Shown here: in pieces, positions 1,333 to 29,700 of the stretch
How positions within the stretch are numbered: position 1 is the stretch's first letter
Layout of the letters: every line of letters begins with the position of its first letter
Program-made: the position numbers and the translations under genes
Source: Phoronis australis
Lineage: Eukaryota; Animalia; Phoronida
Direction of reading: 5' to 3'
Assembly: GCA_002633005.1 (NCBI GenBank)
Contig: NMRA01000357.1
Span: 386,341-450,340, forward strand
DNA: 64,000 nucleotides
Notes under the pieces: model-generated
What the model was told of the DNA's origin: nothing
Databases searched by the model: none
What the model saw: only the letters and a program-made list of their open reading frames with translations

Positions 1333-2030
1333 GCACCCAAACTGCTTACATCGTGTCGTGTGACTCCCTCGCCACACACCTGGCACCTTCTAAATAGCTC
1401 CAACACTTTAGACAAGTCCACAATAAACTTATCAAAGTTTGGCTCACCGATCTGTTCACTGGACGACGAACTGTCCTCTTCACTGGGTGTCGAACTGGGC
1501 CTGTAATCACTCCCACTACTCAATATCGCTGCAGGGCTGCTTAGAGGCTCTGGGCTGGAGAAAACAGCACAGGGCGAATCACTACTGGTTCCAGGAATTG
1601 CACGCTCTGGGGTACGTTCGGAGGCACGGGTGACAGTAGATGAAGTGCCTCCACTGGCTCCAGTCACTGTACTGGCCACAGCTCGCGAGGCTTCTCGCTT
1701 CAAAAACGCACTTCTCGGGGGTGGCGACGGGGCACTGCCGGGAATCAACACAGACGGAATGGCATCCTTCTTCAAGCGTTGTTTCGCGGGGACCTTCATC
1801 AGTTCAGCGTACAAATCCCTTTCGTAATCGGACGGCAGAAAGTGCTTGCCACACACACGGTAATTCTCCACTGCTTTGTACGTTGCGTGGACGGGTAACG
1901 CTGCGTTCTTCACACGAACGAGCCAAGTACGGCGAAGTGTGTCATCCATCGGAAAGCGATGCAAAGGCACTCCCAAAGCGCGCGTGAGCCGATAATTACT
2001 ACATCCCGGTACGCAGCAACAGTGTGGCAT
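1023..2030 (-). CDS. Kolobok transposase N-terminal fragment (THAP zinc finger + CxxC region; DDE core deleted)
   Basis: MPHCCCVPGCSN...LHRFP...W...RVCGKHF...LKKDAIPSV is the THAP C2CH signature with an AVPT-like box. It is followed by a Ser-rich linker and RCQVC...WECVAGH..W. The frame then runs into antisense KolX sequence near ~1230. Confidence 0.85.
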   Translation of the reverse strand: MPHCCCVPGCSNYRLTRALGVPLHRFPMDDTLRRTWLVRVKNAALPVHATYKAVENYRVCGKHFLPSDYERDLYAELMKVPAKQRLKKDAIPSVLIPGSAPSPPPRSAFLKREASRAVASTVTGASGGTSSTVTRASERTPERAIPGTSSDSPCAVFSSPEPLSSPAAILSSGSDYRPSSTPSEEDSSSSSEQIGEPNFDKFIVDLSKVLELFRRCQVCGEGVTRHDVSSLGAQVTIQWECVAGHSGKWDSCSSVRGMPEVHLTISSSGLASSNSEQHKHSIEVGITTHTVHLHQDVSPRLSSVAASFLSTAACACAYSASLYSGSNMYPPTECS

Positions 2031-2684
2031 GTTGACTGACTAGTAAATGAAAGCGAACGACGACGGAACTTAACACAACCGAGGTAGAACAATGACTGAC
2101 TCGGCAGCTCTCACAGTCAGACTATATGAAAAGAAATTGGCGCGAAATGCTTGCCTCCTAAAACGTCACTTCCGGAGTAGCGAACGAGTAATCAATAAAA
2201 TTACGAAAAGCTGTAATTAAGTGGAAAATATGTCTAAGATAACTAACCAACCTTATTTTAGCTCAAAATGACGTGGAAAAAGGTTGCCTTCGCCTTTAAC
2301 CTAAAACATGTTTGTGTCTTCTCCGAATCCGCGGTAGACCCATTAGCCCTCAAAGCACAGCAGGTGCATTTAGTTGGTCAACAGTTGAACACAAATTATT
2401 GTTTTGCCTTGGGATTGATTTTTCATTTTCCTTCCTGGTGGCAGTTAAGTTTTAATTTGAATTGTGAATTGTTATGAAGACATCCAAAACTTTGAAAAGC
2501 TGAGTGTGACGTCATAAATTATCCTCGTCACACATGGCTCAGAAATGTGAACTGTCTCATTTTTCGAAAACTTACTCAATCATACAAAGGGTTTTCCGGC
2601 CAGCGTTGCATTTGTACCGATATATTGATTCCATAATAGTTTCACATTGAGAACAGGATTGAGCGAATCCTTTGTCTGTTCCAG

Positions 2685-5600
2685 TACCAAGGAAAGTGGT
2701 ACATTCAGAACGATGTTCTCAACGAGGGCGTGTGGAAAAATGCATACCTGACACTTCACAACGGAACTATTCTGTACTACAACTCAGAAGACGTTCAGTA
2801 AGTTATATTCTATACTATAGCAGAAGGCTATCTCTTAAAGATGGAGACCTCTCCTTACTTTCTTTAGCAGCGCCACCTTAGCAGGGAAACAAAGAAGTAC
2901 TCGTTATGTCTACGACAGCGATGAAAATTTTCAGACATCCAGTTGAGTAATAATATGTAGAAAAATAAATCAATCACTGGACTTGCGGTTTATTGAGTTG
3001 GCTACGTTGCGTCCTCCTTGGGGACTTCAGCGGGCCACTGAGGTGTCACGTGGTTTGTCATATGATCCACATCACAGTTTGCGCGGGATACTCTTTAGTA
3101 CCTTATGCCACGTCCTTGGCAACAGAAACCTCAGCCCCCCTTGTCCGTTTAGGCTAAGATTCTCAACTCTAGTCGTATCAATCAACATCGTGGGCCCACT
3201 TATGGGGACTGCTATGATTCTGCGGTTTTCAGTCATATAGCCGCAACAGACCATTCTTTCTCCCTGGATTATGTCACGATTCTGGATAGAAAGGAAAATT
3301 GGTTCAGGGGAGATGGCAAGGAAGCAATTTATGAAAGAATTGAGGATCCTAGCCTAAACAGACAAGGGGGCCTCAGGTTTCTGTTGCCAAGGAAGTGGGA
3401 TAGGGCACTAAAGAGTATCCCGCGCAAACTGTGCTGTGGATCACATGACGAGTCACGACGAGTCACGAGACGCAAAGTATCCAACTCAATAAGTCCAGTA
3501 ATTGATTTATTTTCTACATATGTCTACTACTAGTCTTTTTCCGTGTCCACTAGCATGATTGGGGTTTGATAATGGCGGACACAATGTAACAGAATGCTAG
3601 ACCGTGTTGATGCTAGATTTTTAATGCGCAGCTATTAACCAACTACGTGGATCAAGATTTTGCTTTCCGCTAATGAATTTACAAAATCAGTACCGAGGTA
3701 TGTGATGTTCTTCCTTGAGAGGGTAGTCGAATGACGTGACTGAAAATGCTTGTACATGTAACAGCAAAACACACTAAAGCAAATAAAACTTATCATTTAT
3801 TCAACATCGTTTTTAGGTGAGGGATTTGTAAGAGAAGTCATATGAAGTAGTAAGAAGTTTGAAAAGAGAATAAACCAGCCTCCTAAATCGGGCGTTCAAA
3901 ATGGCTTCCTGTCTAACGTGTTAATTTGAATATTTAGCATTAATATTCGAAATGTCAAATCATGGCCAATCACGTGCGACCGCCTTCGGCAAATAGGGCT
4001 TAATAAGCAACGTCATTGGAATTAGGGCTGAACTTTACAAGAAAACAATCAAACGTCTGGTTTGGAGGCCGTCAGTACACTGTAAGAGGGTGTATCCAGC
4101 GTCTCTTTTTTCAGATGTCGTGATGTAGCCGTTCTTATGGCATACGACCGCTTTATGGGTAGAACAGTAGAACAGTAGGTTGACTATGAGAACACTGATT
4201 TTCTGTTTTATTTCAGCGACGCCAAAAAATACTCAATGACTTTACTTGATTCACTCTGCCTGTCATCTTTTCAACCGACCTAGGACCAATATCAAAATTA
4301 CTCCCACAATCGACTAAGACCCGGCCCTGAAAAGCTAGTTCTCGCGAGATATCGCTGCGCATATGGAGTGAAGGACGTGGTATTAGCTTTTATCACGCAT
4401 TTGCAGATTTGATTGGAGAGTGATTGATTATTAATCCGCCTGAGTAAGCTGAACCTGCGGAAAGAATCGTCTGCAGACAATGATGTCTCCCACTGTAATT
4501 GCTGGTGTTTTTCAGGACTACCTCCGGAACTTTAGAACCTCATAGAGACGCTTCCTTTTTATTTAAAGGAGAAACTTATACTAGTAAGTAATTTTAACCA
4601 GTAAAACACCGGGTACGTTCATTTATTATATTTCGTTGGAGAACCACCCTTATGCATTATTTAGGCATTAACTGTGTCACGTCGCAAACTGTCACCGCTC
4701 AAGATAATTGGCATTGTAAGGACGCTTGCATACCTAAGAAGAAACGGTTACGGCGCGAAGGCTTGAGGCAACAGTGTGGAGTTCCCATAAGCGGGGGCTT
4801 CAATTAAGCTCGACAAAATGGAAATTAGGAAAGTATTTGCGTACTAATATAATTGACCATTTTCCTTGTGCCTGGTTGATCACGTGACTATTGAATTTTA
4901 AAAGTAATTAGGCACTCTATTGTTCGTCTTTGTGCAGTTAAAAATGTCCTCTCATGGTACTTTACTGGGACATTAACTTTGTTTAAATTACCTGTGTTTC
5001 CGTTGTTTCAAAAACAGTTTAAGATGTCGATAATTAGTATAAAAATAATATCGCACCGTAGGTTTGTCCCATGCCTATTATTTTCATGATTTGGCCTACG
5101 AAATATCAAGTGTTATTTAAGGAAAATGACATGTGATTACAGGACTCACGAATACATTTGTGGCATGTTTTACCTTCCCACAGGTGTGAGGGGAGTGGTT
5201 TACGAAGACCCCGGCAATGACTTCCTAGTTATCTACGAGCGCAATATAGCACAGACAGACAACCCAGATAACGTTGTAGAGGCTAGAACATACTTACTGA
5301 CCAGGAAACAGGAGGTCGATCCGAAAACGAGAAACACAGCACTCGATGCAATTCACAGTGTTGCTTCAAAGTTGTGTTTGAAAGATCCTTACGGTAAACA
5401 GTGTATCTCTTTTTGAAATCGAATTGTTTTAATCATTTTAAAAGCGTTTAACGTGCTTGTCCTGCATGCTGGACGTTTCCGTAGGTCGGCGTCCTTAGAG
5501 TTATAAAGATTGCTATGTAGGGAAACTTTTTTAGTTTGCAGAGGTTCGAGTAATGTATAATGTCTCAAAGTTATAGATTCAGTCACTATATTCATAAAGA

Positions 5601-8600
5601 AATGCTGCACAATTTGGACACTGATGACTTAAATATACTTTGTCTCACCAATTCAAACAAAGTCAGCTACGAAACTTCATAAGTTACAGTCAAAACAATT
5701 AGGTGATGTGTCAGAAATAAGACGGTGTAGAATTAGGTTAAGAGGTAGCCATGTTTTGTAATGGTGGGTGGGACAGGTTTGATTAAATGCATTACCTAAC
5801 AACCTCTAATTACACATCAGAGACCTGACGTTATTTAGTACTAGGACAATGATCACGCAAAACTACGATAGCACCTTCTTTAGGGATAACTTTAGGTAAA
5901 ATTTGATTAATTATCTAGAGTCTTGTTGGGCACTTTCCAAACCAACTGTTCACAATATGGCTGCGTTTCGCATAGTGGTCCCGTTGGTCACTCGTTGATT
6001 CAATAAATTTCGCCAAGTATGTTGGTCTTCCATCAAGTTTTTTTGTTCGCACGATACAGGTCGCAATTTTCGTCAGATCATCACGAAATTTACACATAAC
6101 ACGTAGACCGGTAGTGCTGGAAGCCTATTGTTTTTCGTCATACTCAGATCTAAGATGGCGGCTGTGGCGGCCATTTTGTTTTCATTTTAAGATTCAATGG
6201 CTTCTGGAGGCTACAATTTTTTACGTACAGGGCTGCAAATCGGCACAATTATTGGATCGGATGTGCACTACGTGTACTCCGGAACTTGTTCACTTCCGTT
6301 CAAAGATGGCGGAAATATTGGCACACGCGCATGCGCACCATGATTTCGGGAAAAAAACATTTTCTCCTGTAGAGGGCGCATTATAGGCCAATTCCTTCGA
6401 ATTTTTTCAGATATTGGTTTTTATGACATGCTATTACATAAAGCCATAAAACCAGAAGTTGCTTTCAAGATAGCGGATCTGGCTCAAGTTGACCTATTTT
6501 TAGTCGTTCTGAGGGGCCATTAAAACGGGATAAGGAAATGACGCGAAATTTTGCATGTGGATTCTCTGAAGTATACTCTTTCAAATGAACAATTTTTTTC
6601 TCAGACTTAGCGTTTTCGAGTTATTTGACTTTCAATTTCCTAAGAAAAAACGCAAAATTACATTATTTTCGAAAAATTTACGGAAGTGCGTGATAATATA
6701 ACATTAGATAGAGTTTTGAACGGGCTTTCATATGATATCTTTCATTTTTCTCTAGAACGTCAACTTATTGAATTATTGGAAATTTTCTGATAGCGTTGCT
6801 CCTTTGTAGAGCGCTCTTACTGCATTGATGTTGGCTTAGCTTTTATCGAACAAGACTGTAACCTATTTCTTACTGATTTATGACACCTAAGTGCGTCATA
6901 TGAATGTTATGGTGTTGTGCAGCATCATCATCATCGTCATCATCTCCGTCGTCGTCTTTTCAGTTAATTTCGCCAAGTGTCGCTCAAGACTGTAGCCTAT
7001 ACTTACTGATGTCTGGCCTCTACGTTCGTCTTGTGATTGTTATCATTAATTGAATTGTTCATCATCGCCACCATCGTCGTCATATTCGTCATCTTCGTCA
7101 CCATCTCTATCGTCGTCTTTTCTGTTAATTTCGCCAAGTGTCGCTCCTCGGAGCGCTTTCATCTTTAATGTTGATTTGTTCCAGCTTGGCTTACTGAAAT
7201 TTTACATAGGTATCGACACTGCAATGATTATTTAAGTCCAAGGTGACGTTACAAATTTTGTTTGGAATAGTGTTTGCTGGTAATTGGCTTGAAGATGTTA
7301 GACCTGCTGAGGTAGTCCGTACCACGTCACTGAAATCTCACCACATGCCAAGAATTGTAGGATGACCCTTGGGTTACCTTAGTCTTCACCTGCTTCCTGG
7401 TGGTTTGGTAATTGAACAAATTATGTTGCAAACACAGCAGAAATATCGATGGTCATAATATGACGACATCTAACAAAGGTTTTATTTGTAATTGTCACTG
7501 ACATTTCTTTCCAATTTTCAAAATTCAAAACCTGCTCACGTGTACTCCTCAAATATGCTATTAAAAACTTTCAAAACAAATTATTTGAAAATACTATTTT
7601 CATCCTCAGTGTGTTTACAAATAGGTCTCATCATCTAGAGAACCATAACATCAGCAGCCTGGGGTAATTAATAGCATGGTGTCTTTCATCAATGCATGCA
7701 AATTTTGAGGTACGCAAACCGCTCGATATTGGTGTCAACGCTGGATTCTTTTCATGAAGAGACCTGCGTTTGTTTTCAGCAACTGAGCAAACCACTGAAT
7801 TAAGCGATGATGCACAGGCTGAAATCGAACATAGTGGTGAAGTTAACAGTGGTGAAGAAGTAGGAGGCAGTGGTCACGTGGACGGAAGTGGTCAAGTTGA
7901 CGGGAGCGGTCACGTGGACGGAAGTGGGCAAGTCGAACCCAGTGGTCACGTGGACGGAAGCGGTCACGTAGAAGGCAGTGGTGAAATAGGTGATCTACTT
8001 ATTTTTTAAAACTTCATTCGTCGATCTCAATAACGTTGTAAAGATTTTCATAAAATGGAAATTTTGACTGAAAAGGGTGTTAACGTAATAATAACATAAC
8101 ATGTTATAATCCCTTATATTTTTTATTTCAGAAAATATTTACTTTTACTGTTTGACAAACCCTGTTTTTGATATACGAGATAACCTTAAACAGGACCGTT
8201 CACGTGATTTGTTTTAGTTGGAAGTCTGCAAAATTCAGCGCGCCTTTATTAGCGCAGTGTGGTACTTAAGGCGTAATTCATCACAAACACCAAAAAACTT
8301 CACGGTTTTAAGTCAAGTTTCAGTTTGTATTACCGCTAAAACGTTTCTTTTTAGCCTCATATCCACACAATTATCTTCAAAAATTAGGTTTTGATCAAAA
8401 CACGTCTAACACTGCATTTTTCACTTTCTTGATATCAGAAGGCTCTGGAGAACACATTTGTCCCAATGTGCTTTGTGCCAGCTACTGCCCTTATGGATAC
8501 AAGACGGATGATAATGGCTGCAACAACTGCGAATGCGTAGAGGAGACATGCGAACTGTTGAGAGATTCTGTCAATGAAAACATCAAGAAAGGCCTGGAGT

Positions 8601-10879
8601 CAGGTTCACCGCTGCTCGGAGCAGAACCTCCGATTTGCGAGAAGGATGGAAGTTACAGCGCCAAGCAATGCTCGGGTTCAGTGTAAGTCAAAGTGTCAGT
8701 TGTGTAATAATCAGTGTGTAGCGTAGTGTCATCTTTTACTCTATAATAGAATGGAAGGTGCAACACTAAAGAATTGATGAGGCTATAGCTCCCCAGTCTC
8801 CCCGTGGTGCACCGCCCATAGACCATGGGCGGCGGTGCACTGAAAAAATAGTAGGCTGTACCCTACATGTAGCTCCCTATGGTGCGCCGCTCATGAGTAG
8901 GGAATATTATTCCATCTGCTGTAAAATCACGTTTGTACATGCAGTTTCCAGATCACTCAGGATAATAATTGAAAGTGACAAAGGCATTGAAACTGTCGGG
9001 GGAAAATGTTCACCATCCATGGTGTTAGAATTCTTGAGTTTTAAAAGTATCCGTATCCTGAATGAAATCCTGTGCAATCCTTTTAAATTGAATTATTAGT
9101 AATGGCAAGGGGACGTTGCAAAGGAGTAGGCACATAACACAAAGACCTGATAAGAAATACCAACTCAACTATTGATTTGCGCACCCCAAGCACTTACTGT
9201 AGCAAAATGCCTCGGTTTCAGTTGCTACTGTGTCACTCCCAATGGCAAGGCCATTGCAGAATTCATAGAGCTCGATAGATGGGCAGCCGACCATCTCGTA
9301 TGCGGTAAGTCTTTTTCTCTTGCTTTGACAATCAGCCGGTCTAAACACCGTAATTGATGCAGTGGAATCTTTTATCAGAACGTGTCCAGAAACTGCTTAT
9401 TGCGTCTCCACCTCTTGTCAAGTGTGTGAAATATTTTGCTTAACTTATGAGGGAGTACGAGCTCTATGTACGTGACTCTGTTTCGTTTAAACCTGGTTGC
9501 TTTCTACCGCCACACAGAAGTTGAAACACCATCGCTCATGCAACGGAAGCAGTGAGTACTGGGTGCAGTACTTGCAAACTTTCATCATGCAAACTTTGGA
9601 ATGAAACTTTTTTTTCAATGTGGCCATTTTTTGGTTATTGTTGATAATGACAGAAGTTTTGTAATCGCAAAACACTAAGGAGACATTTTGTAATAGTGTA
9701 TGATCTTTACTAACTCGAAAGAGTTTCGCCAAATGGTTAGATGCCAAGCAGTGAACTACATGTATATTTTCACTCACGTGTTCAAAAGCATGACTTCAAA
9801 AAAACACACTCCAATGCATTGTATTGGATTCTTTCAAACATGTAGGATGCGCTAGGGAATTCTATACACAGAAAACTCTCGAGGAAGACGGATCCAGCGT
9901 TCGTTGCGACCCTATAGGCAACTATTACCCAGTGCAGTGTAACAAGGGGATGTGTTATTGTGTGGACCAGAGCAGTGGAGCGCCAATCGAGGGAACTCAG
10001 CTACCATTGGCAGAAAAGAAAAGTTTGGAAGGAAAGTGTCCAATTAAAGGTTAGTTAAAGTCCCACCTGATATATTAGTACTACCACTAAAGTAATGGTT
10101 GGAGTTCATCATCTCTCGAGCCTCGCTAAAAAGCAAGAGTTTGCGAGATTACATGAGATACTGTCGTGTAAATGAGAACACGTGATTTTGGCTAGATTTT
10201 AGCGAGGTGGTATCGTTGTAGAACTCTGACCTGCTTGTTTTGACAATACGCCGACACGAAGATAATTAATGTTTTGTAAAGTCCCGACATATTCCGCTTA
10301 CTTTAAATACGATAGCGGACCTGAGATAGGTGTTACTACTACAATTGTTCCGAGCCAAATCTTTATTTAATTACTGCCCAATGACTTTAAATGTATGCTT
10401 TTGTGACATAAAAAATCATGTGCACAGCTGTACTGAGTGTAGGGCTCGCGCGAGATGTGAGCATGACGTCGGCATGGAGATCAAAACGTTTAACCCGCGC
10501 TCAGTTAAAGTCATAGAATCAATTTTGGAAATTCAACTGTTATAATTGAGCAGGTTAACGGGCTAATCAAGAGCCATATCTTACATATCTACAGTAGTAT
10601 CAAATGCTAATATAATCTGTGTTCAAGACTTTTCGTCTGGTTACAAGCTCTAATACACTGTGCATATATACGTCTTGGTGACTTTTAGATTATTTATCCA
10701 TTCTGTAATCGCACACCTTTTTCATTTTAACACATCCACTTATTTCAGAAGTCAGCGACAAGGAGACTGCAGTGGCCGTTACCGGAGCACTGAAAGTTAT
10801 CGAAGTACCGAAAGCCCCAGAAGTACCGAAAGCTCCCAAAATACCGGTGGTTCCCAAAGTGGCTGAAGTTCCAAAATAA
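2685..10879 (+). CDS. Gene 1: lipocalin + Ser-Gly proteoglycan repeat + antistasin-like + 2x thyroglobulin type-1 domain protein (5' end unresolved)
   Basis: Phase-compatible GT-AG exons: 2685-2797 (YQGKWYIQND..), 4516-4583, 5184-5393 (..FLVIYER..TYLLTR..LCLKD), 7780-7989 (VDGSGH repeats), 8439-8682, 9222-9304, 9846-10049, 10749-10879 (stop TAA 10877-10879). Possible extra upstream exon ending at 2363. Confidence 0.85.
2957..3517. mobile_element. MITE / foldback element with ~200-bp inverted repeats, in a gene 1 intron
   Basis: Left arm GTAGAAAAATAAATCAAT...GCGCGGGATACTCTTTAGT...GGCAACAGAAACC is mirrored by right arm GGTTTCTGTTGCC...ACTAAAGAGTATCCCGCGC...ATTGATTTATTTTTCTAC. ATAT on both flanks (2953-2956, 3518-3521). 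Confidence 0.8.
5184..5393 (+). CDS. Gene 1 exon: C-terminal half of lipocalin domain
   Basis: cag|GT acceptor and G|gtaaac donor. SVRGVVYEDPGNDFLVIYER...TYLLTRK...KLCLKDPY has an SCR3-like LTR motif and terminal Cys, and aligns with the last exon of each gene 2 domain. Confidence 0.8.
5910..6840. repeat. Interspersed repeat of unknown class
   Basis: Recurrent AAGATGGCGG / GGCCATTTTG and GAAATTT(T)ACAC/GCATG motifs typical of non-autonomous invertebrate repeats. No meaningful ORF. Boundaries are approximate. Confidence 0.4.
6850..7160 (+). repeat. Degenerate tandem duplication (~140-160 bp unit) with (TCA/TCG)n microsatellite
   Basis: CAAGACTGTA(A/G)CCTAT at ~6851 and ~6986. TTAATTTCGCCAAGTGTCGCTC at ~6964 and ~7125. 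CATCATCATCGTC runs between them. Confidence 0.65.
7780..7989 (+). CDS. Gene 1 exon: acidic Ser-Gly hexapeptide repeat (putative glycosaminoglycan attachment region)
   Basis: 18-nt tandem unit encoding (H/Q)V(D/E)GSG. Nine SG dipeptides in acidic context. Phase 1-1 exon. Confidence 0.85.
8439..8682 (+). CDS. Gene 1 exon: antistasin-like domain + first half of thyroglobulin type-1 domain
   Basis: CPNVLCASYCPYGYKTDDNGCNNCEC fits the antistasin C..C...CPxG...DxxGCxxCxC pattern. It is followed by TC...PICEKDGSYSAKQC, the Tg-1 PxCxxxGxYxxxQC motif. Confidence 0.85.
9222..10049 (+). CDS. Gene 1 exons 9222-9304 and 9846-10049: end of Tg-1 domain 1 and Tg-1 domain 2
   Basis: CYCVTPNG...C, then CAR...VRCDPIGNYYPVQCNKGMCYCVDQSSGAPIEGT...C, with CWCV-like Tg-1 motifs. 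Confidence 0.85.
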
Positions 10880-10916
10880 TCATCACAACCAGAGGACGAG
10901 AAAGTTCATAAGGTTA

Positions 10917-10922
10917 AATAAA
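10917..10922 (+). terminator. Candidate polyadenylation signal of gene 1
   Basis: AATAAA ~38 nt after the TAA stop. An alternative AATAAA lies at 12311-12316. Confidence 0.4.
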
Positions 10923-14510: not shown

Positions 14511-14758
14511 CAGGGCCGGATCCAGGATTTTGAGTTAGAGGAGGGGGACAGGTCACAGGAATAACCTGAATTTCGGCACATGCGCGCGCCCAGCCTAAAA
14601 TGTAGCTATGCAAGGGTCTCGAATTTTTGGGTTTGTTGACCTTATTACTAAAAAAACGGTAAACGGGCATTGTTCGAGGTCAATGCATTGCACTACCAGA
14701 TGGTATGTAGGAGAATTTTAGGGGGTCAAGGCCCCCTTGCCCCCCAAATCCGCCACTG
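14511..14758 (+). mobile_element. hAT-like MITE copy
   Basis: Starts CAGGGCCGGATCCAGGATTTTGAGTTAG and ends CCCCAAATCCGCCACTG. A related copy in opposite orientation lies at 15342-15500. Confidence 0.55.
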
Positions 14759-17946: not shown

Positions 17947-17953
17947 TATAAAA
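17947..17953 (+). promoter_or_regulatory. TATA box of gene 2
   Basis: TATAAAA 75 nt upstream of the signal-peptide ATG at 18022. Confidence 0.55.
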
Positions 17954-18021
17954 CATTCGGCGTTGAACAGTTTTTCATCCTTGTTTTTGTGCTGTTGTGC
18001 CGAGCTGTGCAGCGCATAGTC

Positions 18022-20739
18022 ATGGATTCCGTGCTTGTTGCCATTGTTTGGGCGTTGATCATTCACTGTGTCGGATCAATGCCAGTAAAGAGCCCATCAT
18101 GTGTTGTCGATGAATCAGTTTTTCAGCTGGAATTCGAAAGGGAGAAGGTATAGTTTATTATTGTTGGAATCATGGATGGTTCTTTGATAACATTGTTACG
18201 AAAAGACTTTTGTTGAAGGCCAGTGTTCCGTGCCAGTACCATTAGAGAATTTCTTAGAAACAGTTCTTTCTTTGAAGGTTTGCCTAAATGTTCATTGTGC
18301 TGGGTATGACGAGGAATTTGTAATTTCTTGAACTCAATTTGTTCAATAATGAAAAGACCAATACAAGTTTATGATAACTTTGGCTCTTGACCATCTATTA
18401 ACACTGCGAACGTAAGCATTTTTGAATTAGGTAAAAGTTTATTCTCACTTTTTGCGTTGTCCCAATTAATAAGGAGCACGACAATATTTTACAACGTTTC
18501 AGAATCCGAATTGCTTGTATATTCACAAGCATTTTGAGACAAAAGTCAAGTAGTAGATTAATTCCATTCGTTGTAAAATTGGCCTGCTCGTTTTCTTACA
18601 GTTCATAAAATTCTCTAATGAGTCTGTTCCGGATTAACACTAGGAACTCCTTGCCTTGAAAATTTACAGTACAGTGTTATCATTCGATCATAGCGAGACA
18701 AATTAGTTTACGCTTTGCACGTACATCAACCAAAATTTAGAACCCCATACATAAGGGAAAACTTAGTTAATACTGCTCTTCATTAAATTATTGCCATGTA
18801 GTCCCATTGCTGCCCTGATGAACAACTCAGCCACGTGCAATCAATTACCCTTTTATTACAGAAGGTTAAATAAGAAATTGCATTTCCCCTCATGTTGGTT
18901 ATGTTGTTCGTACGTTATTGAATTTTATTTGGTCTTAAGTTACGCAATACTTTGGTCTGCCCTAACTCACTCATCAGTTGGCGCCAAGTAAAGTACCTGA
19001 CATAGTGATTTCTTAACATGTGTCTCTGTTTGTTTTTTTACCACTTGACGAGAACAAAATCGATTGTTGCTCCAATGCGTTTTTCCAGATCAATGGCAGA
19101 TGGTTCATCGACCATGGGGCGAACATGACTAGTGCGGGGAAGTGGAGAGCGGAGTCCTTCGTTCTTGACGCCAACGGAACGGTTCATTTCTTCAACCGTG
19201 AAGGACACCTGTAATTTAACTTCTTATCGTTCTTTAACATTTCCACGTGATTATGCAAAATATCCGAGACTAACTTCGGGCGTTTTGACAAGTTTAAATT
19301 GATCAAACATTTATAAATCAAAGTAAGCAATAGACCAGTGATACATTTGCGTGACGGTCTATACCGCCCATGTTTATCGAATATTCAAACTATAGTCATT
19401 TTATTGGGCCACAAGATGTCTGTGTGTATTTTATCACATGCCTTTACAGCAGGACTATGCGCTTGTACATTTACAAACGAAACAATAGATTTTCACAGCT
19501 GCATTTTGCCCTGTTTAGCTAGCTGTAGAACAAGAATAGAATTAGGCTTTCTCACATATTCTTCTTCATCGTGATAGGATTATATTTCCGTTACCAAAAA
19601 CTACATCGAAACATCCGAATTCAAAAATGTCGCATCTACACATTGTCTGTGACTTGATTTACCAGCTCATTCGAAAACAACGCAACAACGGAGGAGCGCG
19701 GTGACGTTTTTCAACGCCAAGCGGTTTGGTTATGAACTAAACATTGTCAGCTAAATAGCTGTGAAATGCAGCATTTCTCTCAAGTATTTGCCCGCATCTT
19801 TGCATGTGTCTCGTCATTTGTTAGAATTTTTCAGTTCAAATGATAACTTTAATTTTAGTACACTTCAAATGTTCCACTTTACAACGAACAAGTTAAGCCT
19901 TGCTCCCATGTGTTTATGTTTTTTCCTGGGTTTCTCTGCATGTTTCGAACAGAGGGCCAATCACGTAATTCAGGATGTAGGATTTACGTTCATGTATAGG
20001 GGCACATGCTTAAATATGCACTTATTTATTTACAGTATACGGAATTTTCTCCTCACTATCTTTTATGGTATCTAATTATGAGTCTTTTTAATTTAGTTAA
20101 GTCGCATTTCGCTAGTATTACGTGCGAGACAAATCGATTTGCTTTACAGTGACGTAGAAGGGACTTTGGATCATCATAACGACAGACCGCCGTCCGAGTT
20201 CGTCTACCACGATGATACACATTCAAGTACGCTCTTACTATAAAAAGAATTGAATTAAAATGCCAACTTATTGTTGTTCTTAATTTAAAATTATGTACGG
20301 CAGGAAGAACTACTTTTTATACGCGTGATGAATTGTTCAGTGTATCCTGTTTCAAAGCCGCAGTAAGTGACTGTCGGACATACTGTAGATGGGAATATAA
20401 TTCAATTAGTTGGGATCGAATTTCTATTCTCAGCCTGGTCATATACATTTATCCGTCCTGCAGTCCAAGTCACCCACCAGCTGAAGGATCACAAAAATCC
20501 ACATAATTATACTGAATATAATTGCTAAAAATGCGTTACCGTTTCAGCCGTAATCCGCGTAGTTGTCACGGACTATAACACCGCCATAATTTACGAAAAG
20601 CTCATCTCAGAGACTGACGACTTGGGCACTGTCGGCGACTCGCAGATTTATTATCTGAGCAGGAGGCGACATCTTACGGATGAACAAAGGCGCAAACTGT
20701 ATGACAACGATTTACAAACGGCCTTATGTCTTCACCAAG
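18022..20739 (+). CDS. Gene 2 signal peptide + lipocalin domain 1
   Basis: Exons 18022-18147, 19089-19210 (INGRWF..GKWRAE), 20150-20226 (..YHDDTHS), 20548-20739 (VVTDYNTAIIYE..YYLSR..LCLHQ). Confidence 0.88.
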
Positions 20740-23700
20740 GTATCCATTGGACTAATTTAGCCACGTGCGCATAATAGTTTAAAGCAAGACCATTTACACT
20801 GAAGTTCAGCGCCTACACAAATCAATATTTGAATAAGAGCGAGGTGCTGCCGCAAAAATTCTGCTCATGGGATCAAAACCGACACCCTATACTCTGGCGT
20901 ATCGTAAGTTCATACTTTTCAAAAAATACGACTCTGGTGGTGCGACCTGCGTTCATATTAGACCCTTCGAAAAACAGCCCCCATGGTTGCACATTACTGT
21001 ATGGATATAGAAAATGTGAATCTTTGAATATTTCAGCTTTCTGTTAGAACCATAAGTGAGTCCAGCAAAATCTTTAACAAGAGAAAGTAGTAAGCAGACG
21101 TGATAGTTGTGAAAGCACTGTGGTAAGATAAATATATTTGGGGCCAGTTTTACTGAAAATATGCAGCACCGGGTTTGCACCAATTTGTTGTCGACCGTCT
21201 TTAATACAACTGCAATTCCGACCAATGGTAAAACTGGCCCCATGCACATTGGCAGCATATTACATGGAATTTAAGACTGGCCTACTACATAACGCGTGAA
21301 TTAGTGATGTAATTTTTGTTTTCAGAAAAATCGTGCGATGTGCAGTCTTTTCCTGTCCAAGAAAATTTTGATATGACAAAGGTAATGCTTCAAACTTGAA
21401 AATTCGGGGGTTTACATGGATGAACCTAAGTAAATTACAGGTTCATACTAGAAAAATATGTCTTTAAATAGTATCGACAGACATGAAGCAAAAGGGCGAA
21501 AGCTTATGGCACACACTTTCGCTTAAAATTTTCAAAACATCAAGATTGGTTGTTGCCACCCTGTGAAGCGTACATGTACTTGCAGATAAATCTATCGAAA
21601 ACCAATCAGATGTCTTAGCCGGTTGACCCAGCGGAACCAGAAGTCAGCTAAGTGAACCAAATGTGAAGCACCGACCATTTCTCTAATCTTCCCCTCTGAC
21701 TCTGGAGATGCAAAAGGCTTAGATTCGCGTTTTTTGTGGTGATGGCTTTCACCTTTTTGTGGACGCTTTTGTTGTGGCCTGCGACAGAGATAAAAAAGGA
21801 CCCCCGCCACTAGACCTTTTGCAGATTTCCATAGCAGACAAATTGGAGAAAATCACCATCTTGTTACATGATCTCGCACATGATCCATAGCCCTCGAAGT
21901 GGAAAACCAGCATGAAATCTTACAAATCTTAGGCAAATTCCCTGCCTGTGCAGTAGCAGGTTAGCACCATGACACCACGAGATGTGAGGCAAAAGTGCAC
22001 CTTGTTTCTTATCTCTCCAAAGGTATATCTAAGACTCGGGTCCTTCAACGTAAGAGTTAAACAATGTTATTTGTGGAGGATGGCTTATCCAAAAACCCGG
22101 TGTCAAAGACATGAAGTCTCAGGTCACAGTTATTATTTGAGGACCGAGCAAGGTTATCCGCTCTCGCGTCCAACCGGACGCCAGCAAATCAAAAACATCT
22201 ACCTATCTTTTCAATGAACGTGAAATCTGATAATTTTATTACTTTAGATTACAGATGTTGGCAAGTGGTTCATAGTCCAGGAGGGAAATGTGACTGGGAA
22301 ATGGAGGGCTGATCACGTTGTTTTCACCCCTGATGAAAATGGAGAGATTCAGGTGTCATTCCACGATGGGGGAATAACAAACACAAAGCACGCTGTGAAA
22401 ATATCAAGAGACAAACATAGGTAGATACTGCATGAAGCTAAACAGAAACATGTGGACTTGTATTATCTATGCAAAGTGCGTCATCGATTTATCAAGTACA
22501 CAATTCATCAATTGCTTAAACGATGACTTGGTTTAAGACGGTTTCCGACTTTAACATGATACTAAACTATGTTTTGTTCAAGTTTACCCTCAACATATTG
22601 CCACTTGTTATTGTGCAATCTCTACGACACTTTTTCGTTGTGTCTTGCAGAGTGATCTCGCATGTCGTTCGAGGTAGTTGTTTTCAACAGCCCTCTATTC
22701 GTTTGGCCATATAAAGCAATAGCCAAGCTTGGACATTACATAGTCTGTATGCAGTTTCTATTGTCATCGAACCTTTTGAAAGTTTTTTATCGTACGTAAC
22801 AGAGCAGTGTTTTGTTTCAAAGGGTCAAATAATCGTACTAATCTTTCTAAAAACACTACAGTCTGCAAATCCAGTATTCCGAAGTGGTTCATGTCATGAA
22901 ATTAAATGTGCAAATGTGAGATGTGTGTATGTGCAATGATGTAGGGTGATAGTGAAGTACAACGTGCATGAGAGGCAATAATGTTTAACATGAGAGGAGG
23001 GCTCTCTGGAAGTGGCATCTACGTGTAGTGGTACTAATGGAGGGATACAAAATGGTATTGGGAATGGCGATGGTGTGATGGACAATTTTATAGAATATAG
23101 AAAGTTTGCAAAAGTAGCGGCGGATTTCGAGGGGTTTGCCAGTTTAATGATTCGGTCATTTCAGTGAGGAGGTATAGTGTTATCTATTGATGGTCAATCT
23201 TGCAACTTGTCGTTGCACCATTTCAATCCTACGAGTCAGTGCTTTTGTGTGAGGTGACCATACTCTTGAACAGTAACCTAGTTTTGGTCGGACTAGAACG
23301 GCATAAGCTATTTCCTTGAGTAGTGTAACGAATGTGTCTTCTACGACAGTCAATGTCTTTACTGGCCGAACCAGCGATTATAACAATAAGTGAATTCCAG
23401 AGGAGATTGTTGGAAATAGTAATGCCAACATTTTAAGCCTCAGACAGAGGTGACAGGTGTGGGCAATGGAGAAAATGGTCTTGGAGGATGGGTTTCTTTT
23501 CCGATGCACGTGACGCATATTTCACTTTGATGCATTGAACTACAAACCGAACACTGATTCTCAATCATCAAATTTGTTAAAAAACGGTTGGAGTGAGAAG
23601 CAGGGTCGTCTTGGGTCTGGATGAAGCGATAAAGTGTACAGTCTTCTGCAATGAGGGGATAATGTACATGTAAGATATCTTTTGAGGCAGGTCATTGATA

Positions 23701-26700
23701 AAGAGGAGGAAGATGACTGGTCCATAGTTAGATCCCTGAGCAGCCCCACAGGGCACAGGGGGGGTTGTCAGATGAGTTGTCCTCTAACAAAAGACACTGA
23801 ATTACATTGTTGAGAAAGGAGGCATCCCAGTTCTTTGTGAGGACGCCAACCACAAAGAAACCATTTGTGTTAACAAGTCCAGAGCGAGATATTTTGTAGA
23901 AAGCTTTACTATCATACTTAGTGACGTCATCGAACTGCATGCCTGAGTTTATATTGAGAAGGAGGTCGTTTGCGAAAGTGAGGAGTTGTGACTTACATGA
24001 AATGTTTGGTTTCAAGATGTTTCATACATGGTGACTCACTGTGACGTGTTCAAGAATCTTGCAGCATGTACATGTAAGGAATATTGGGCTGTAACTTTTG
24101 CTTTGCGTTTTTTTTTCCTTTTTTGAAGACTGGGGCGAGGTTGGCGTGGTGCCAATCCGCTAGAACCACACCAGATAATAGTTAGGCATTAAAGATATCA
24201 GTCAGTAAGGGAGCTATTGGGTTTGATTGTTCCCGGAGAACAAAGTGTTTGGACTTCGGGGTTTGTGTGGGTTCTGAATGGGAAGTTGTTTTTCAACTTC
24301 ATTGATATCATGTGCGCACCCAGGAGGCAAAAAGGTCCACCCCAGAGAAACAAAAAGTCCCAGGGAAACGAGACGAAAGTCTACAAAAAGGCGCAGACAC
24401 ACAGTTCACAGTACTGAAGATGGTACCCCGTTTTTTGTTTAGTCATCCAACTTTTGTGTTAACAAAATGTCCACTTGGTCAGAATTCGACTCCCCCCAAA
24501 CTAAAAGCTGGCTGCGCGCATGGATATCAATGGAGTGGTTTTATAAGGACTTTCATGTAGGTCTGGAGTTATAGAGCTGTCTTCAGTAGTGAAGACTGAG
24601 CAAGATTGATTATTGGAAATTTTTGCTCTGTCGGATGGCTAGGTGGAAAGTCGGCCGTTGTTTTGCAACGGGGCCAACTGAGAAGGCTCTCGCCTGGGAC
24701 TCTTAAAAAATGTAAAAAGACACTTGGGATCGCTCTTATCTTAAGGGTTGATAATGCTATTGGCGTATTTTCATTTGCTGCTAAGGTTTTGTACTTAATG
24801 GGATACTATGTGAGTACCATTGTTTGGGTTGTAATTTATTTTGTTTTGGCTCCAGTTACATGTTCATACATACACGTAGGTCTGCATAATACGACGAATA
24901 GACAATTAGCTTACCAAGGGGTAAGTCGCCGGAAGATCTCTTTGGTCACTATTTTAGGCACATCGATGGAAACATTAAAGAAGATTCTCAGCCAGGGGAT
25001 TATGTGTACATGGACAAGTATCACTCTAGTAAGTTGACGCGTGTAGACTCGCAGCTAGCACAGGCCTTAACGGCATAATGAACGATCCTGAGCGTCGCAA
25101 GGGGGCGCCAGGGGTACAATCATGATTCCAGAAAAAGAAGTGCATGCGGCAAGCCCCTGTATTAACACTTTAGGGTAACACGAGAGGAAGCCCGGTTTCA
25201 TTATTCTGACCCTGAATAACCTTACGCCGTGTTATGAAACTGGTCGAAACTCGCGTTAGGTTATTTTGAACAATTTTCATGCTCACTACGTAGCAAATTC
25301 CAATCCTATACATTCGCTTATGCATTACCATCAATACGTAAACTAGGTCATCCGTCAGGTTCTCTGCATAAACTAGGTCGGCGCTTCAAACAGTCCGCCT
25401 GCATCAAGCTCAAGGAAGATTTTAGTAGCCCAAAAATACCACAAGTTCAAAGATATTCAATTAAAAAGGAAAGACGAAACATAACTCTGAAGATACCTGG
25501 CCAATATCAAGGGTCACCGCTTGTAAGCAAGTCAAGGCGATCCTTATCTCGCACTACCAGTCGACTAGTTTTCCCTAATGCAACAGAAAATTCTCATACA
25601 CTTACTTAACTTGTGATGACTCCTTTCAATTTGAAACCACCCACAATGCACTAAAACAAACTAATATTAAGTGCAAAACCTTTTTATACTCTCAAATGAT
25701 TATTCTGAAAATAGTTGCATTGGTTTCCTTACTTTTAAAGTGTATGCCTTCGACACCGATAGGCTCAAGCGTTAATTTACAGCTGAACGCCGTAGGCCGT
25801 GCTCAGTAATCAAAATGGTACATATAAGATAAACAGTTAGAATTATGCTGGTGTGAAATTTGTCAGTGATTTAACCAAAAACTTCGAATTAGCTCGACCC
25901 ACTGATGATAGTATGTGGAATTCAAATACACACACAACTGAATGTTAGTCATTTTTCAACCCTTTTTGGTCACCACTTTTCTCAATGGATTTCAAAGAAT
26001 ATATGCGTATAATGTTGATTATACTCCCATCTATAGGCGCTATCGGAAATCCCGTCAACCTCTTCGAAGCATTGGCCGTTCAAAGTACGGCACTTCCCGG
26101 ACCTCAGAGGGCTTTGATTGGATGTTTTGCGTGCAAAAGCGATTGAACTTTGACCATCACATTGACACCATACAATTCCGCTCAGTGTTCATAAAGTTTT
26201 GATGCGAATTTGGTTAAGGCCTTGTGAATGACATTTTGCTATCGGCAAATGAGGTCGGGTCAACAAGCAACACGTACATAAGGTCATTTTCTGTGAAGGG
26301 AGGAATTTTCACGCATGCGCAAATAGCTGGTTTATGGATTTCTGGCAATTGTTTAATTTACAGAAAATGGTGATGATAATACATTAATGCAGTTTTAAGC
26401 AAACGGGTGACGTCTGTGTTTGTTTCGATGAAGATGCAAAAATAAATACGATAATTATTTCGCATTACATGAAAGCTGTACTCATATTTAGTTAAATGTT
26501 TTCATCTAAATCAAATATTTGGGTGCGTCCACCAAAAGAATGCACACATTACAAACAGTGAACGGAGTATTGTACAGACGGTCATGATCTGGTAGTTAAG
26601 AAGTGGGTCCTTTTGTTTTCAAACACATGAATGCACCCAAGTCAGAAACCACTTTTCCTAACATATTTTCTTTTATTTTTGCAGCGCAAATGCGATTCAT

Positions 26701-29700
26701 CTGGACGGACTACGAAACAGCGTTGGTGTACGAGAAATTGTTGTCGGAAAAGTCAGGCGAACACAAGATCGGTAGTGCGGCCGTTTATTGGATAAGCAAG
26801 ATTACGGAACTGTCAAACGGAAGCATTCATGCAATTGAAGGGCCCACGGAAGAATTGTACAAATTCCTTTGCATTGACGACAAAGGTATGGAAAACACAA
26901 TAAGAGGACCCAATATATATGCTATCTGACGCACGATACCACCGAATGAAAGCTAGTTTGATCACGTTAGACATGCTCCACAAGGTTGTTAAACCGTGGA
27001 ACACAATTTTGCCAAAATATTAATCTCGTACCTGTGGTGATTGCGAGGACTGAATGAAGCAAAATACAGCACCAGTTCCTAACCAAGTTATTTAATAAAA
27101 GAAATCGGCAGCATATGCAAAAATGACAACATTTTCCACTCATTTCGTACTCTCGACGCCATATTGTCGCTGAGTTATACTACCGTAAAATGATGTCGTG
27201 ATTTGTGAAAAGATATAAACGACCTAATTTGTACTTGAATGCCATAGGTTGATTTAGAAACGGAACCGACCCACGAGATCTTCATCTGACAGAACCGGAA
27301 ACAAGCGCTTTGTAGCCAAAAATGGCATTCTTGTCGAAATTAAGTCAAGATTGTAAAGTAATGCTATTGCAACTTACCCAACTAACTGTTTATTTTAAAA
27401 TGCATTGGATTTTTCGGGCAAGTTGTCACAATCTCTACGAAAGGCGTGGAGCAATACCTGTTGAGAATTTGTTTAACTGGAAGTGAAACGTGTTCTAGTC
27501 GAAAAGCAAGAAACAATCGTACACTGTATGTCGTTGTTGCGTCAACGTGAGGACTAGTTAAATGTGCTGATTTATAGGTAGCAATTGGTTACCCATTGCC
27601 TATATTGGGTTGAATGCATGCATTAGTTGTCCTCATGTCGACGACACACGTGTTACCAATAAATCATAACGTAATCTGTAGCAGTATATGATACCAAATT
27701 TTCTATGTGTTTATTGAGACTCACCAGTGTCCTCCTTTACATTTGATCAGACACAGAATGCAACCCCAACGTGACGATGATACAAGAAAACTTTGACATC
27801 GAAAAGGTACGAGAGTTCTCGGGAGAGTGTCTTTGTTTTTAACGTATTAAGGTTTCATTCATACATGTACACATGGTAACATTTCGGAATCAGTGCTGCC
27901 TGCTCTCCCTGAAAAAGATGTTTTGACTAAAAACTCCACAATGTGTTTAACAATTGGCTAAAACATATATCACTTCTACAGGGTGCGACCAGAAAGCAGG
28001 CCCTAAGTTAGAAAAAAATTCACTAAAAATTTCGTTGGATGTCTGCGTTGACTTCTTATGAGCTCCCAAATCAACCAGCACATCTTACAGTGCGCCTACA
28101 GCCAAATGACGTCACCGATGGTGATGGCACCTGATGGCCATTTTGCGCACTTTAAGTACCTCGTAAGACGGCACATAGAATGCTCTTGTGGACTTTGGTT
28201 TATACTGCTAATACACTTTTTGATCACACTTCCTATGTGATGTTTCATAGCAAACCCACATGTGAACCTGGTAGTACTCTGAAACATTGTAGCAGCAAAA
28301 ATAGCCAACAATTCGGAAAATTACAGTATTTTGTTACATAAACCTGGAAGATCTCCACAAAGGATTTGTGATAAGTGTGAAGTACGATGTAGCAGCCAGA
28401 GAAAAAAGTCTTTCTTTAAATGGCGCTTTTCTAATGCATCCATTTCTGTAAAAAAGGAGTTTGGAATTCCATACAAGTCGGAATATTGGATTTGGTTAAA
28501 GATGAATGTTTAACCTATCGATACCAATGTTTTAGTTTATGACGGGTGAAAACTGGTACATTGTCAAAGAAGAAGGCGTACATCGGGTGGGAAAATGGAA
28601 AGCTGACCATGTCTTATTTACCAGGAACGACGAAGGTCTGATAGGCATGTCCTTCCATGACGGCGGTCTTCTGTCAGACGATGACGTTGAGGAAAAGGAA
28701 CACAGGTAAATAAGTAAACTCGACCTTGTACAGTTTTTTTTTCAATTCACTCTGATGAAGTACGTCATATCAGACAACCATGATTAAACAGCGAAATCTG
28801 GCAAGTAAGTTGGAGGCCAGGCTAAACAGCGTATAGACGCAACAAACGCGTAAAACGCAAGATCACGAAATTACTCCAGACACAATGGTACGCATTAGAG
28901 CTGACCAAAATGGTCAAACTAGCGATTTTCACGAGTGACCAGCGTTTAAGGATTAGGTGCCAGTTGCCTTCGATGGCTTACTGTGCGCATGCCCAGAGAA
29001 AGAGAAAGAATACCAGAAAATGTGTCTCATGATTGATTCGTCTGAGTCGGATTGCGTCGTTGTAAAAGGACTGCATATTGCATGTATATAATCGAACCTA
29101 ACTTCTAGACCTTCGCTGAATAATGGGTCCGTATGTTGGCATTCAAAACACCTAGCATGGACATTGACCCTGACAGAAGGTCTTTGCCACGACAAGGGGA
29201 CAGTGAATGAAGACCAGTCGTTCACTCGGTTGTTCTGAGCGACTAATTATGTACCTTTGAGTTAATCAGAGTGGAGTCCAGGGCATCTGTGGCTGGTTGC
29301 ATGAAACAGTCCTAAGTAGGGACTAAACTAAGTTCCCTAAATCTACTGCGTATTTGTGGACTTGGGAAAACACTGTCTGATTGTCCTTTACTATGCTGTT
29401 TTAATTTCATCACTATAAAAATTTTTGGCTTTGATGCAAATCGAGAGTGAACCTCGACCTTGAATTCTCAATATTATTGAAAATGCATAGGGATCTTTAC
29501 GTGCAACATTCTTAACTCGTACGTACAAACATCGTCACCATTTTCCTGTTTCCAGACATATAGATGGACATTTTGCTGTCGGGCAACAGCCAGGAGACTA
29601 CCACTACGTTGACAGTACACACTCAAGTAAGGTTTCATTGCTGTTGCACAACCTAACTTGTTCGTTTCTTCCAACACTCGTGCATGAAGTTGTGTTACCC

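What the first reader, a model, noticed from the sequence alone, without database searches (positions are those of the whole stretch)
2685..10879. AMBP-like logic with different parts: lipocalin - EGSG GAG sites - protease-inhibitor modules
Seen: gene 1 order is lipocalin, 10 acidic SG sites (including EGSG), antistasin-like domain, 2 Tg-1 domains. Known: vertebrate AMBP is a lipocalin (alpha-1-microglobulin) followed by a chondroitin-sulfate site (EEEGSG) and two Kunitz inhibitors (bikunin). Antistasins inhibit serine proteases and thyropins inhibit cysteine cathepsins. Inference: convergent assembly of a lipocalin-proteoglycan-inhibitor precursor in an invertebrate, possibly processed into separate chains.
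Basis: partly seen in the sequence, partly recalled or inferred. Interest (0 to 1): 0.8.

Follow-up and report, generated by a model that had tools for sequence, protein, structure and literature searches.

The report
Invertebrate lipocalin-inhibitor fusion gene family
This spliced, expressed invertebrate gene joins a likely small-molecule-carrying lipocalin barrel to a run of predicted sugar-chain sites and three protease-inhibitor-type modules; a neighbouring copy has eight such barrels and sea urchins have a six-barrel protein with a similar tail, so it is likely one of a little-studied family of one-piece secreted carriers rather than a parallel of the cut-in-two vertebrate protein AMBP.

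Summary
RNA reads support 7 of 7 introns of gene 1. Its order is lipocalin-like barrel, 10 acidic Ser-Gly sites, one antistasin and two Tg-1 domains. Its 5' end lies outside the window.

Next door, gene 2 (18022 to beyond 64000) encodes a signal peptide, eight tandem barrels of the same subfamily, an SG run and two Tg-1 domains; RNA supports 23 of its 37 introns. Also, a barrel-only profile searched against 1.84 billion proteins found as best hit a sea urchin protein with six lipocalins, antistasin and Tg-1, conserved in three urchins.

The AMBP parallel is only architectural. The barrels link to RBP4/ApoD-type lipocalins through the urchin protein, gene 2's barrels have no spare cysteine, and neither gene has a basic cleavage site before the SG run. 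The best reading is a single-chain secreted carrier-proteoglycan with a testican-like tail. Glycosylation, inhibition and ligand are all untested.

The parts
2685..2797 (+). Gene 1 barrel exon B (GKWY motif); begins at a splice acceptor, upstream exon(s) not in the window
4516..4583 (+). Gene 1 barrel exon C
   Evidence: joints on both sides in reads
5184..5393 (+). Gene 1 barrel exon D (three strands, helix, C-terminal Cys; the TDY motif is degenerate)
7780..7989 (+). Gene 1 acidic Ser-Gly exon (9 of the 10 SG sites, hexapeptide repeat); predicted glycosaminoglycan attachment region
8439..8682 (+). Gene 1 exon with the tenth SG (EGSG), the antistasin domain (about 8459-8536, P1 Ala) and the first half of Tg-1 domain 1 (G-x3-P loop motif)
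9222..9304 (+). Gene 1 second half of Tg-1 domain 1
9846..10049 (+). Gene 1 Tg-1 domain 2 (6 Cys, lacks the G-x3-P motif)
10749..10879 (+). Gene 1 last coding part, Pro/Lys/Val-rich tail and stop; the UTR continues to at least 11376
17994..18147 (+). Gene 2 first exon: likely transcript start at 17994, ATG 18022, hydrophobic signal peptide
19089..30537 (+). Gene 2 barrels 1-3 and a short linker exon (joints up to 22248 seen in reads; the later ones predicted)
30723..59931 (+). Gene 2 barrels 4-8, each on four exons of 50/134/68/219 nt (joints from 43530 onward seen in RNA)
60189..60350 (+). Gene 2 acidic Ser-Gly exon (8 SG here, a ninth at the start of the next exon)
62433..63716 (+). Gene 2 two Tg-1 domains (exons 62433-62598, 63115-63197, 63507-63716), no antistasin; 54% and 61% identical to those of gene 1
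63986..64000 (+). Gene 2 next exon, which runs off the window

Best explanation
Gene 1 is a spliced, expressed gene that likely encodes a secreted single-chain carrier-proteoglycan: a lipocalin-like barrel predicted to bind a small hydrophobic ligand, a Ser-Gly run predicted to carry several glycosaminoglycan chains, and antistasin and Tg-1 modules that would guard it against proteases. Shown: the transcript path, the module order, barrel homology, the eight-barrel paralogue next door and the urchin proteins with the same tail order. Inferred: a signal peptide for gene 1 (by analogy to gene 2); chain attachment in the Golgi, which would hold the protein in matrix, mucus or body fluid; no cleavage between barrel and tail; and weak or selective inhibition, most plausibly of cathepsin-L-type proteases by the first Tg-1 domain and of elastase-type rather than trypsin-type proteases by the antistasin (P1 Ala). 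Barrel number grew by repeated four-exon duplication within this lineage, which would raise ligand capacity per chain.
For: 7 of 7 joints at even depth in X2 and X3. Gene 2 has 38 exons and 1521 aa without a stop, with a signal peptide and 23 of 37 introns supported by RNA. The exon-D profile found 3 proteins at E<=0.001 among 1.84 billion; all are multi-repeat proteins, and the two scanned in Pfam are lipocalins. The best (E 2e-16) is S. purpuratus LOC584238. The query held no tail sequence, yet that protein ends in antistasin and Tg-1. HHalign of the 9 window barrels against 18 urchin barrels gave 98.4%, E 1e-14, and 9 of 9 barrels outscored all 200 of their shuffles. The SG run is kept in both paralogues with different repeat units. 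The linker has no basic site. Tg-1 domain 1 of gene 1 and 3 of 3 urchin Tg-1 domains keep Gly at -6 and Pro at -2 before the second Cys; a Gly-x3-Pro pair in this loop is proposed to matter for protease recognition (PMC10889554 passages). The nine window barrels form one clade, 100/99.
Against: No biochemical step was tested. Gene 1's barrel scores only 7.5 bits on the urchin profile and 1.9% in HHalign alone, and it lacks a clear TDY motif. Its fragment model matched a split-lipocalin chain at only Z 5.3 (rmsd 3.2, 56 aligned), with acetyltransferases filling most of the next rows. The urchin proteins have no SG run (0 [DE]GSG), so chains are not a family-wide feature. Only 1 of the 4 Tg-1 domains in the window keeps the full loop motif, and gene 2 lacks antistasin. 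The signal peptide of gene 1 was not seen. By best single-domain score the window barrels are closer to abalone proteins that lack Tg-1 (38-40 bits) than to urchin (18-21 bits).
Confidence: 0.5

Rival explanations
1. AMBP-like precursor: the protein is cut after the barrel and releases a free lipocalin and a glycosaminoglycan-bearing inhibitor chain.
For: Same order of module kinds as AMBP, with an exon boundary between barrel and SG run and EGSG motifs. The acidic linker is probably exposed (inference).
Against: No Arg, dibasic or RxxR site in gene 1 residues 120-240 and none in gene 2's linker. Gene 2's barrels each hold 2 Cys, so there is no free thiol like A1M C34 (PMC7965949 passages). 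There are ten sites rather than one, and no Kunitz domain.
Confidence: 0.12
2. Structural matrix proteoglycan: antistasin and Tg-1 serve as non-inhibitory binding modules and the barrels as spacers or adhesion units, possibly binding metal or heme through histidines in gene 2.
For: 3 of 4 window Tg-1 domains lack the full loop motif. The nearest solved Tg-1 matches are thyroglobulin repeats, ahead of saxiphilin and p41. The antistasin is a lone six-Cys unit with P1 Ala. Barrels have about 2 Cys against 6 in the relatives, and His is 6.2% against 2.5-3.5%, with one His invariant in 8 of 8 gene 2 barrels. An abalone relative carries VWA and Ig domains.
Against: The loop motif is kept in gene 1 and in 3 of 3 urchins, and the urchin antistasins have P1 Lys. 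The GxW motif is kept in 9 of 9 barrels.
Confidence: 0.28
3. The SG run is an unmodified or O-glycosylated flexible linker, and the protein is a plain soluble carrier-inhibitor fusion as in sea urchins.
For: The urchin proteins lack the run. The run is low-complexity and varies in length: one X1 contig has an extra in-frame 12-nt unit in gene 2.
Against: SG order exceeds shuffles in both genes (0 and 118 of 20,000), in an acidic context without basic residues. Reads show a substitution that creates a third EGSG in gene 1 (168 of 168 reads in X2).
Confidence: 0.1

Closest known systems
Sea urchin LOC584238 (S. purpuratus XP_030853515.1) and its relatives in Lytechinus variegatus and Diadema setosum; uncharacterised
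   Same: Likely signal peptide, tandem lipocalins, antistasin, then Tg-1; best hit of the barrel profile; Tg-1 loop motif shared with gene 1.
   Different: Six barrels with about 6 Cys each, no SG run, one Tg-1, P1 Lys, and antistasin missing from one isoform. Its barrels form their own clade; Tg-1 identity to the window is only 21-31%.
Vertebrate AMBP (alpha-1-microglobulin/bikunin precursor)
   Same: A lipocalin followed by a Ser-Gly glycosaminoglycan site and protease-inhibitor-type modules on one transcript.
   Different: AMBP has a VRR cleavage linker, a free Cys34, one chondroitin sulfate chain that takes heavy chains, and Kunitz domains (PMC7965949 passages). None of the sequence features is found here. 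AMBP is placed as a vertebrate fusion derived from PTGDS/C8G (PMC8420045 passages).
Testican-1 and other thyropins (MEROPS I31: p41, saxiphilin, equistatin, tick IrThy)
   Same: Tg-1 domains in a proteoglycan or carrier context; testican-1 inhibits cathepsin L, saxiphilin is a carrier with two Tg-1 domains, and glycosaminoglycans modulate IrThy (PMC10889554 passages).
   Different: None has a lipocalin or antistasin part (recalled); inhibition is not shown here.
Lepidopteran polycalin
   Same: One chain with many lipocalin-like domains (15 in Plutella; PMC10145054 passages).
   Different: Insect midgut protein; no SG run, antistasin or Tg-1 in the passages read; relationship to these barrels not tested.
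RBP4 / ApoD-type lipocalins
   Same: Top solved-structure matches of the urchin barrels (RBP4 E 6e-19, ApoD E 4e-12). The window barrels keep Cys near both ends and the GxW and TDY-type motifs.
   Different: The window barrels lack the inner Cys pairs seen in the urchin barrels, and have no direct Pfam or convincing PDB sequence hit.

Membership tests
Lipocalin (calycin) superfamily | Sequence homology to lipocalin profiles | tested here: met
   Transitive: window profile to urchin protein E 2e-16, urchin to Pfam Lipocalin_2 E 3e-53, HHalign 98.4%. Gene 1's barrel to gene 2's barrel 1: 44.7 bits. No direct Pfam hit on single exons.
Lipocalin (calycin) superfamily | Conserved motifs: GxW, TDY, and aromatic-x-x-x-R | tested here: inconclusive
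   GxW-type Trp in 9 of 9 barrels; TDY in 6 of 8 gene 2 barrels but degenerate in gene 1; the third motif is present in gene 1.
Lipocalin (calycin) superfamily | Eight-stranded barrel plus helix | tested here: inconclusive
   Only single-exon fragments could be folded: three strands plus helix, pLDDT 84.5 and 74.7. Best Z 5.4 (rmsd 2.6, 55 aligned) and 5.3 (rmsd 3.2, 56 aligned), to a chain I recall as a split Blc lipocalin; Z is below the tool's threshold of trust.
Lipocalin (calycin) superfamily | Binds a small hydrophobic ligand | not testable with these tools
   Needs biochemistry.
AMBP / alpha-1-microglobulin-bikunin | A1M-type lipocalin with a free Cys34 | tested here: not met
   No A1M among 39 hits of the urchin barrels at E<=0.01. 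Gene 2's barrels have exactly 2 Cys; gene 1's visible part has 1, at the C-terminal position, and none after the GxW motif.
AMBP / alpha-1-microglobulin-bikunin | Basic cleavage linker (VRR) between lipocalin and inhibitor chain | tested here: not met
   No Arg or dibasic site in residues 120-240 of gene 1; none in gene 2's linker.
AMBP / alpha-1-microglobulin-bikunin | Two Kunitz domains | tested here: not met
   Pfam finds antistasin and Tg-1, no Kunitz.
Chondroitin/heparan sulfate proteoglycan core proteins | Ser-Gly with nearby acidic residues | tested here: met
   10 sites in gene 1 and 9 in gene 2; criterion from PMC2063922 passages.
Chondroitin/heparan sulfate proteoglycan core proteins | Signal peptide | tested here: inconclusive
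   Present in gene 2; gene 1's 5' end is outside the window.
Chondroitin/heparan sulfate proteoglycan core proteins | Chains actually attached | not testable with these tools
   Needs glycoproteomics.
Thyropins (MEROPS I31) | Tg-1 domain, type 1A with six Cys | tested here: met
   Pfam above cut-off; six Cys in each of the 4 domains.
Thyropins (MEROPS I31) | L1-loop Gly-x3-Pro proposed for protease recognition | tested here: inconclusive
   Complete in 1 of 4 window domains (gene 1 domain 1), Pro only in 1, absent in 2.
Thyropins (MEROPS I31) | Inhibits papain-family proteases | not testable with these tools
   Needs an assay.
Antistasin-type serine protease inhibitors | Antistasin Cys pattern with a C-x3-C reactive loop | tested here: met
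   Pfam 34 bits against a cut-off of 21.2; aligns with hirustasin, guamerin, antistasin and bdellastasin. Only the six-Cys half is present.
Antistasin-type serine protease inhibitors | Basic P1 residue for trypsin-like targets | tested here: not met
   Ala at the position holding Arg, Arg, Lys or Met in the four solved inhibitors; that this position is P1 is recalled. An elastase-type target remains possible.

The most novel reading that the evidence does not exclude
These genes and the sea urchin LOC584238 proteins descend from one ancient bilaterian gene that fused an RBP-like lipocalin to an antistasin-Tg-1 inhibitor tail long before AMBP arose. The barrels were then multiplied separately in each lineage (1, 6, 8 or more), and this lineage added a glycosaminoglycan run. 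Lipocalin-proteoglycan-inhibitor fusion would thus have evolved at least twice from different parts, and gene 2 would be an eight-barrel, histidine-rich proteoglycan carrier of a kind I did not find described.
Probability: 0.3. Interest if true: 0.65.

Novelty: new variant of a known kind. Interest (0 to 1): 0.42.

Why it matters
A review calls the A1M gene unique among lipocalins in being joined to a non-lipocalin protein, and says the reason for the co-synthesis is largely unknown (PMC7965949, abstract and passages). These RNA-supported genes, and the annotated urchin and abalone proteins, show that invertebrate lipocalins are also fused to other modules, including inhibitor-type ones. A natural series (one barrel plus antistasin, eight barrels without it, six barrels without SG) allows a direct test of why carriers get joined to inhibitors and sugar chains. 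It also offers candidate proteoglycan core proteins in a likely mollusc, since such cores appear to arise independently in each lineage (PMC2063922 passages). The value is moderate: exon shuffling of these modules is ordinary, multi-lipocalin chains are known, and no function is shown.

Tried and rejected
No whole genome was held, so gene 1's 5' end and any upstream barrels could not be read; a scan of 1-2684 found no signal or A-type exon. Word-based protein searches with one exon and with the exon-D alignment found nothing; the tool calls this weak evidence. Two ESM Atlas searches gave no usable hit. PDB sequence searches with the barrel exon profiles gave nothing convincing: best E 0.25, and E 0.03 to odorant-binding protein in a shifted register. 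Fragment folds gave only Z about 5. The AU test neither rejects nor shows a window-plus-urchin clade (p 0.35), and the window clade sits on a long branch. Rejected: one giant gene spanning both loci. Gene 1's last exon runs through the stop into a UTR, and gene 2 has its own read-end pile at 17994 and its own signal peptide; 54 weaker joints were not shown. Rejected: barrel and Tg-1 exons on different transcripts, with the limit that short reads and one contig do not show full-length molecules. Variants typed from the displayed rows only (18 for gene 1, 21 for gene 2, out of many not shown) were 7 synonymous to 11 replacing and 10 to 11, with no stop and no Cys change; this is too selected a sample to measure selection. 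Literature: 0 papers held lipocalin + thyroglobulin type-1 + antistasin; 0 held two of four multi-lipocalin phrases; the urchin gene appears in 1 paper, as a table row; searches listed nothing on such a fusion by title and abstract start (20 of 30 listed). The library lacks most subscription journals. Earlier-finding look-ups by place, words and sequence returned nothing on these genes.

Full report
Observation. The window is eukaryotic DNA of about 40% GC, and no whole genome was held. Eight + strand exons between 2685 and 10879 join into a 420-aa open frame. Four RNA or likely-RNA runs (X1-X4) were laid on 2301-22300. All 7 of 7 introns have joints, with 68-124 reads in X2, 71-114 in X3 and 2-17 in X4, all with the first mate on the minus strand apart from 2 reads. 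One 1936-nt X1 contig carries the exons from 5184 to the 3' UTR, and X1 shows the two earlier joints at the same depth. Two joints are listed with shifted ends, but their skipped lengths (449, and 2389 with 3 letters between) equal the AG/GT introns. Pfam confirms antistasin and two Tg-1 domains. The SG count of 10 is right and exceeds 20,000 of 20,000 shuffles. Position 2685 is an acceptor. About 166 nt of the contig lie outside the laid stretch (my subtraction), and no signal exon was found in 1-2684. A few reads end near 2540, a possible minor start.

Surroundings. A six-frame search showed eight more copies of the barrel's first large exon downstream. They belong to gene 2: ATG 18022, a hydrophobic leader, 38 exons and 1521 aa without a stop up to the window's end, with every intron AG/GT and a repeating phase pattern 1/0/2/1. 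Its order is signal peptide, eight barrels (31-61% identical to each other), an SG run of 9 sites and two Tg-1 domains, without antistasin. RNA supports 23 of 37 introns: 5 and 18. Four of those 18 rest on X1 contigs alone among the rows shown. A 2393-nt contig spans barrel 6 to the second Tg-1 and runs past the window. Junction depth in X2 and X3 is of one order from the first to the last exon, which fits one long transcript. Gene 1's barrel is nearest gene 2's first barrel (27% identity, 44.7 bits), so a one-barrel gene 1 is likely but not shown.

What the barrel is. Single exons have no Pfam lipocalin hit. A profile of the nine last barrel exons, searched against 1.84 billion representatives, gave 3 proteins at E<=0.001: S. 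purpuratus LOC584238 (E 2e-16), an Owenia protein of 5687 aa and a Haliotis protein. The urchin protein has six Pfam lipocalin stretches and a Tg-1, and three of its four current isoforms also have an antistasin just before the Tg-1. A search with its last 355 residues found the same layout in Lytechinus and Diadema (3 hits among 565 candidates of 719-2291 aa). The abalone proteins carry Ig (and in one, VWA) domains and no Tg-1. The window and urchin barrel alignments match end to end (HHalign 98.4%), and 9 of 9 window barrels beat their 200 shuffles; gene 1's is weakest at 7.5 bits and 1.9% alone. The urchin barrels rank RBP4, sandercyanin and ApoD first among 39 solved sequences, with no alpha-1-microglobulin. 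Exon-fragment models show three strands and a helix. For gene 2's fragment, 7 of the top 9 structural rows are lipocalin C-terminal halves (names partly recalled; Z 4.2-5.4). For gene 1's fragment the same top chain appears but acetyltransferases follow. The fold test is therefore supportive but inconclusive.

History. In a tree of 58 barrels (9 window, 18 urchin, and 31 abalone and Owenia domains that passed a length and 25-bit filter, of 50 found) the window barrels form one clade (100/99) and the urchin barrels another (97/89), so the arrays expanded separately. The window clade sits weakly with abalone on a long branch, and a window-plus-urchin clade is not rejected (p-AU 0.35). Unchecked notes on this genome call it a likely mollusc, which agrees with the best single-domain scores going to abalone. 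If so, the lipocalin-antistasin-Tg-1 order is either ancient in bilaterians or arose twice. For common ancestry: a barrel-only query retrieved a protein with the same tail. Against: whole-protein scores favour many-repeat proteins, Tg-1 identity is only 21-31%, and the antistasin shares an exon with Tg-1 here but is skipped on its own in one urchin isoform. I put common ancestry at about even odds.

Mechanism. The SG sites fit the criterion of Ser-Gly with nearby acids used to find nematode chondroitin proteoglycans (PMC2063922, passages). Both paralogues keep such a run with different repeat units; the urchins have none. AMBP is cut at VRR, has a free Cys34 and bears one chain on bikunin (PMC7965949, passages). 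Gene 1 has no Arg or dibasic site from residue 120 to 240, and the gene 2 barrels hold two Cys each, so a single chain is the simpler reading. The antistasin has Ala where the solved leech inhibitors have Arg, Lys or Met, and the urchins have Lys. Trypsin inhibition is therefore unlikely for gene 1; antistasin-like domains of non-bloodfeeding invertebrates have unclear function (PMC7851590, passages). Gene 1's first Tg-1 and all three urchin Tg-1 domains keep a Gly-x3-Pro loop motif, while the other three window domains lack all or part of it. Thyropins include the proteoglycan testican-1 and the carrier saxiphilin, and glycosaminoglycans modulate a tick thyropin (PMC10889554, passages). I commit to a secreted single-chain carrier-proteoglycan with a protease shield (0.5). 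The rivals are a non-inhibitory matrix protein (0.28), an AMBP-like cleaved precursor (0.12) and an unmodified linker (0.10).

Comparison and novelty. The gene fails three AMBP membership tests and resembles AMBP only in module order; AMBP is placed as a vertebrate fusion (PMC8420045, passages). Chains of many lipocalins are known as insect polycalins (PMC10145054, passages). The urchin relative appears in print, within this library, only as a row in a gonad proteome table (PMC6669438, passage). My searches found no description of a lipocalin-antistasin-Tg-1 family. Subscription journals are mostly missing from the library and I read no supplements, so a mention there may exist. Verdict: a real, expressed gene pair and a new variant of known kinds, made of familiar modules, with untested function; interest 0.42.

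Noticed in passing
window 601-2299: A DNA transposon with long terminal inverted repeats lies just upstream of gene 1's first visible exon, probably in an intron. It holds a THAP-domain ORF (1023-2039, minus; E 5e-15) overlapped by a P2RX7_C-like ORF (937-1332, plus; E 6e-5).
   Followed up: partly
window 8478-8603, 62549 and 63655 (run X1): An X1 contig of depth about 272 matches parts of gene 1's antistasin/Tg-1 exon, and X1 loose ends at gene 2's Tg-1 exons differ from both genes. This suggests a third family member outside the window.
   Followed up: no
window 19089-59931: Gene 2's barrels are histidine-rich (8-13 His each). One His is invariant in 8 of 8, and several more columns are His in 5-6 barrels; possible heme or metal binding.
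   Followed up: partly
window 45750-45800: A degenerate extra copy of a barrel first exon without a usable donor, skipped in reads (44600 joins 46299); likely a relic of tandem duplication.
   Followed up: partly
window 2538-2684: A small pile of read ends at 2538-2540 (5-6 molecules, depth 8-11) suggests a minor start or retained intron that would lack a signal peptide.
   Followed up: no
window 30773-39456: The 8.7-kb intron inside gene 2's barrel 4 holds what looks by eye like decayed mobile-element coding sequence.
   Followed up: no
P0002, P0011 (Owenia fusiformis 5687 aa; Haliotis asinina 3267 aa): Very large uncharacterised multi-lipocalin proteins, with 29 and 15 matches to the urchin barrel profile; the abalone one also has VWA and Ig domains.
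   Followed up: partly
runs X2, X3 versus X4: Both genes are covered about ten times more deeply in X2 and X3 than in X4 over most exons (gene 2's last exons are nearer, about 40 reads in X4), which suggests shared tissue-restricted expression.
   Followed up: no
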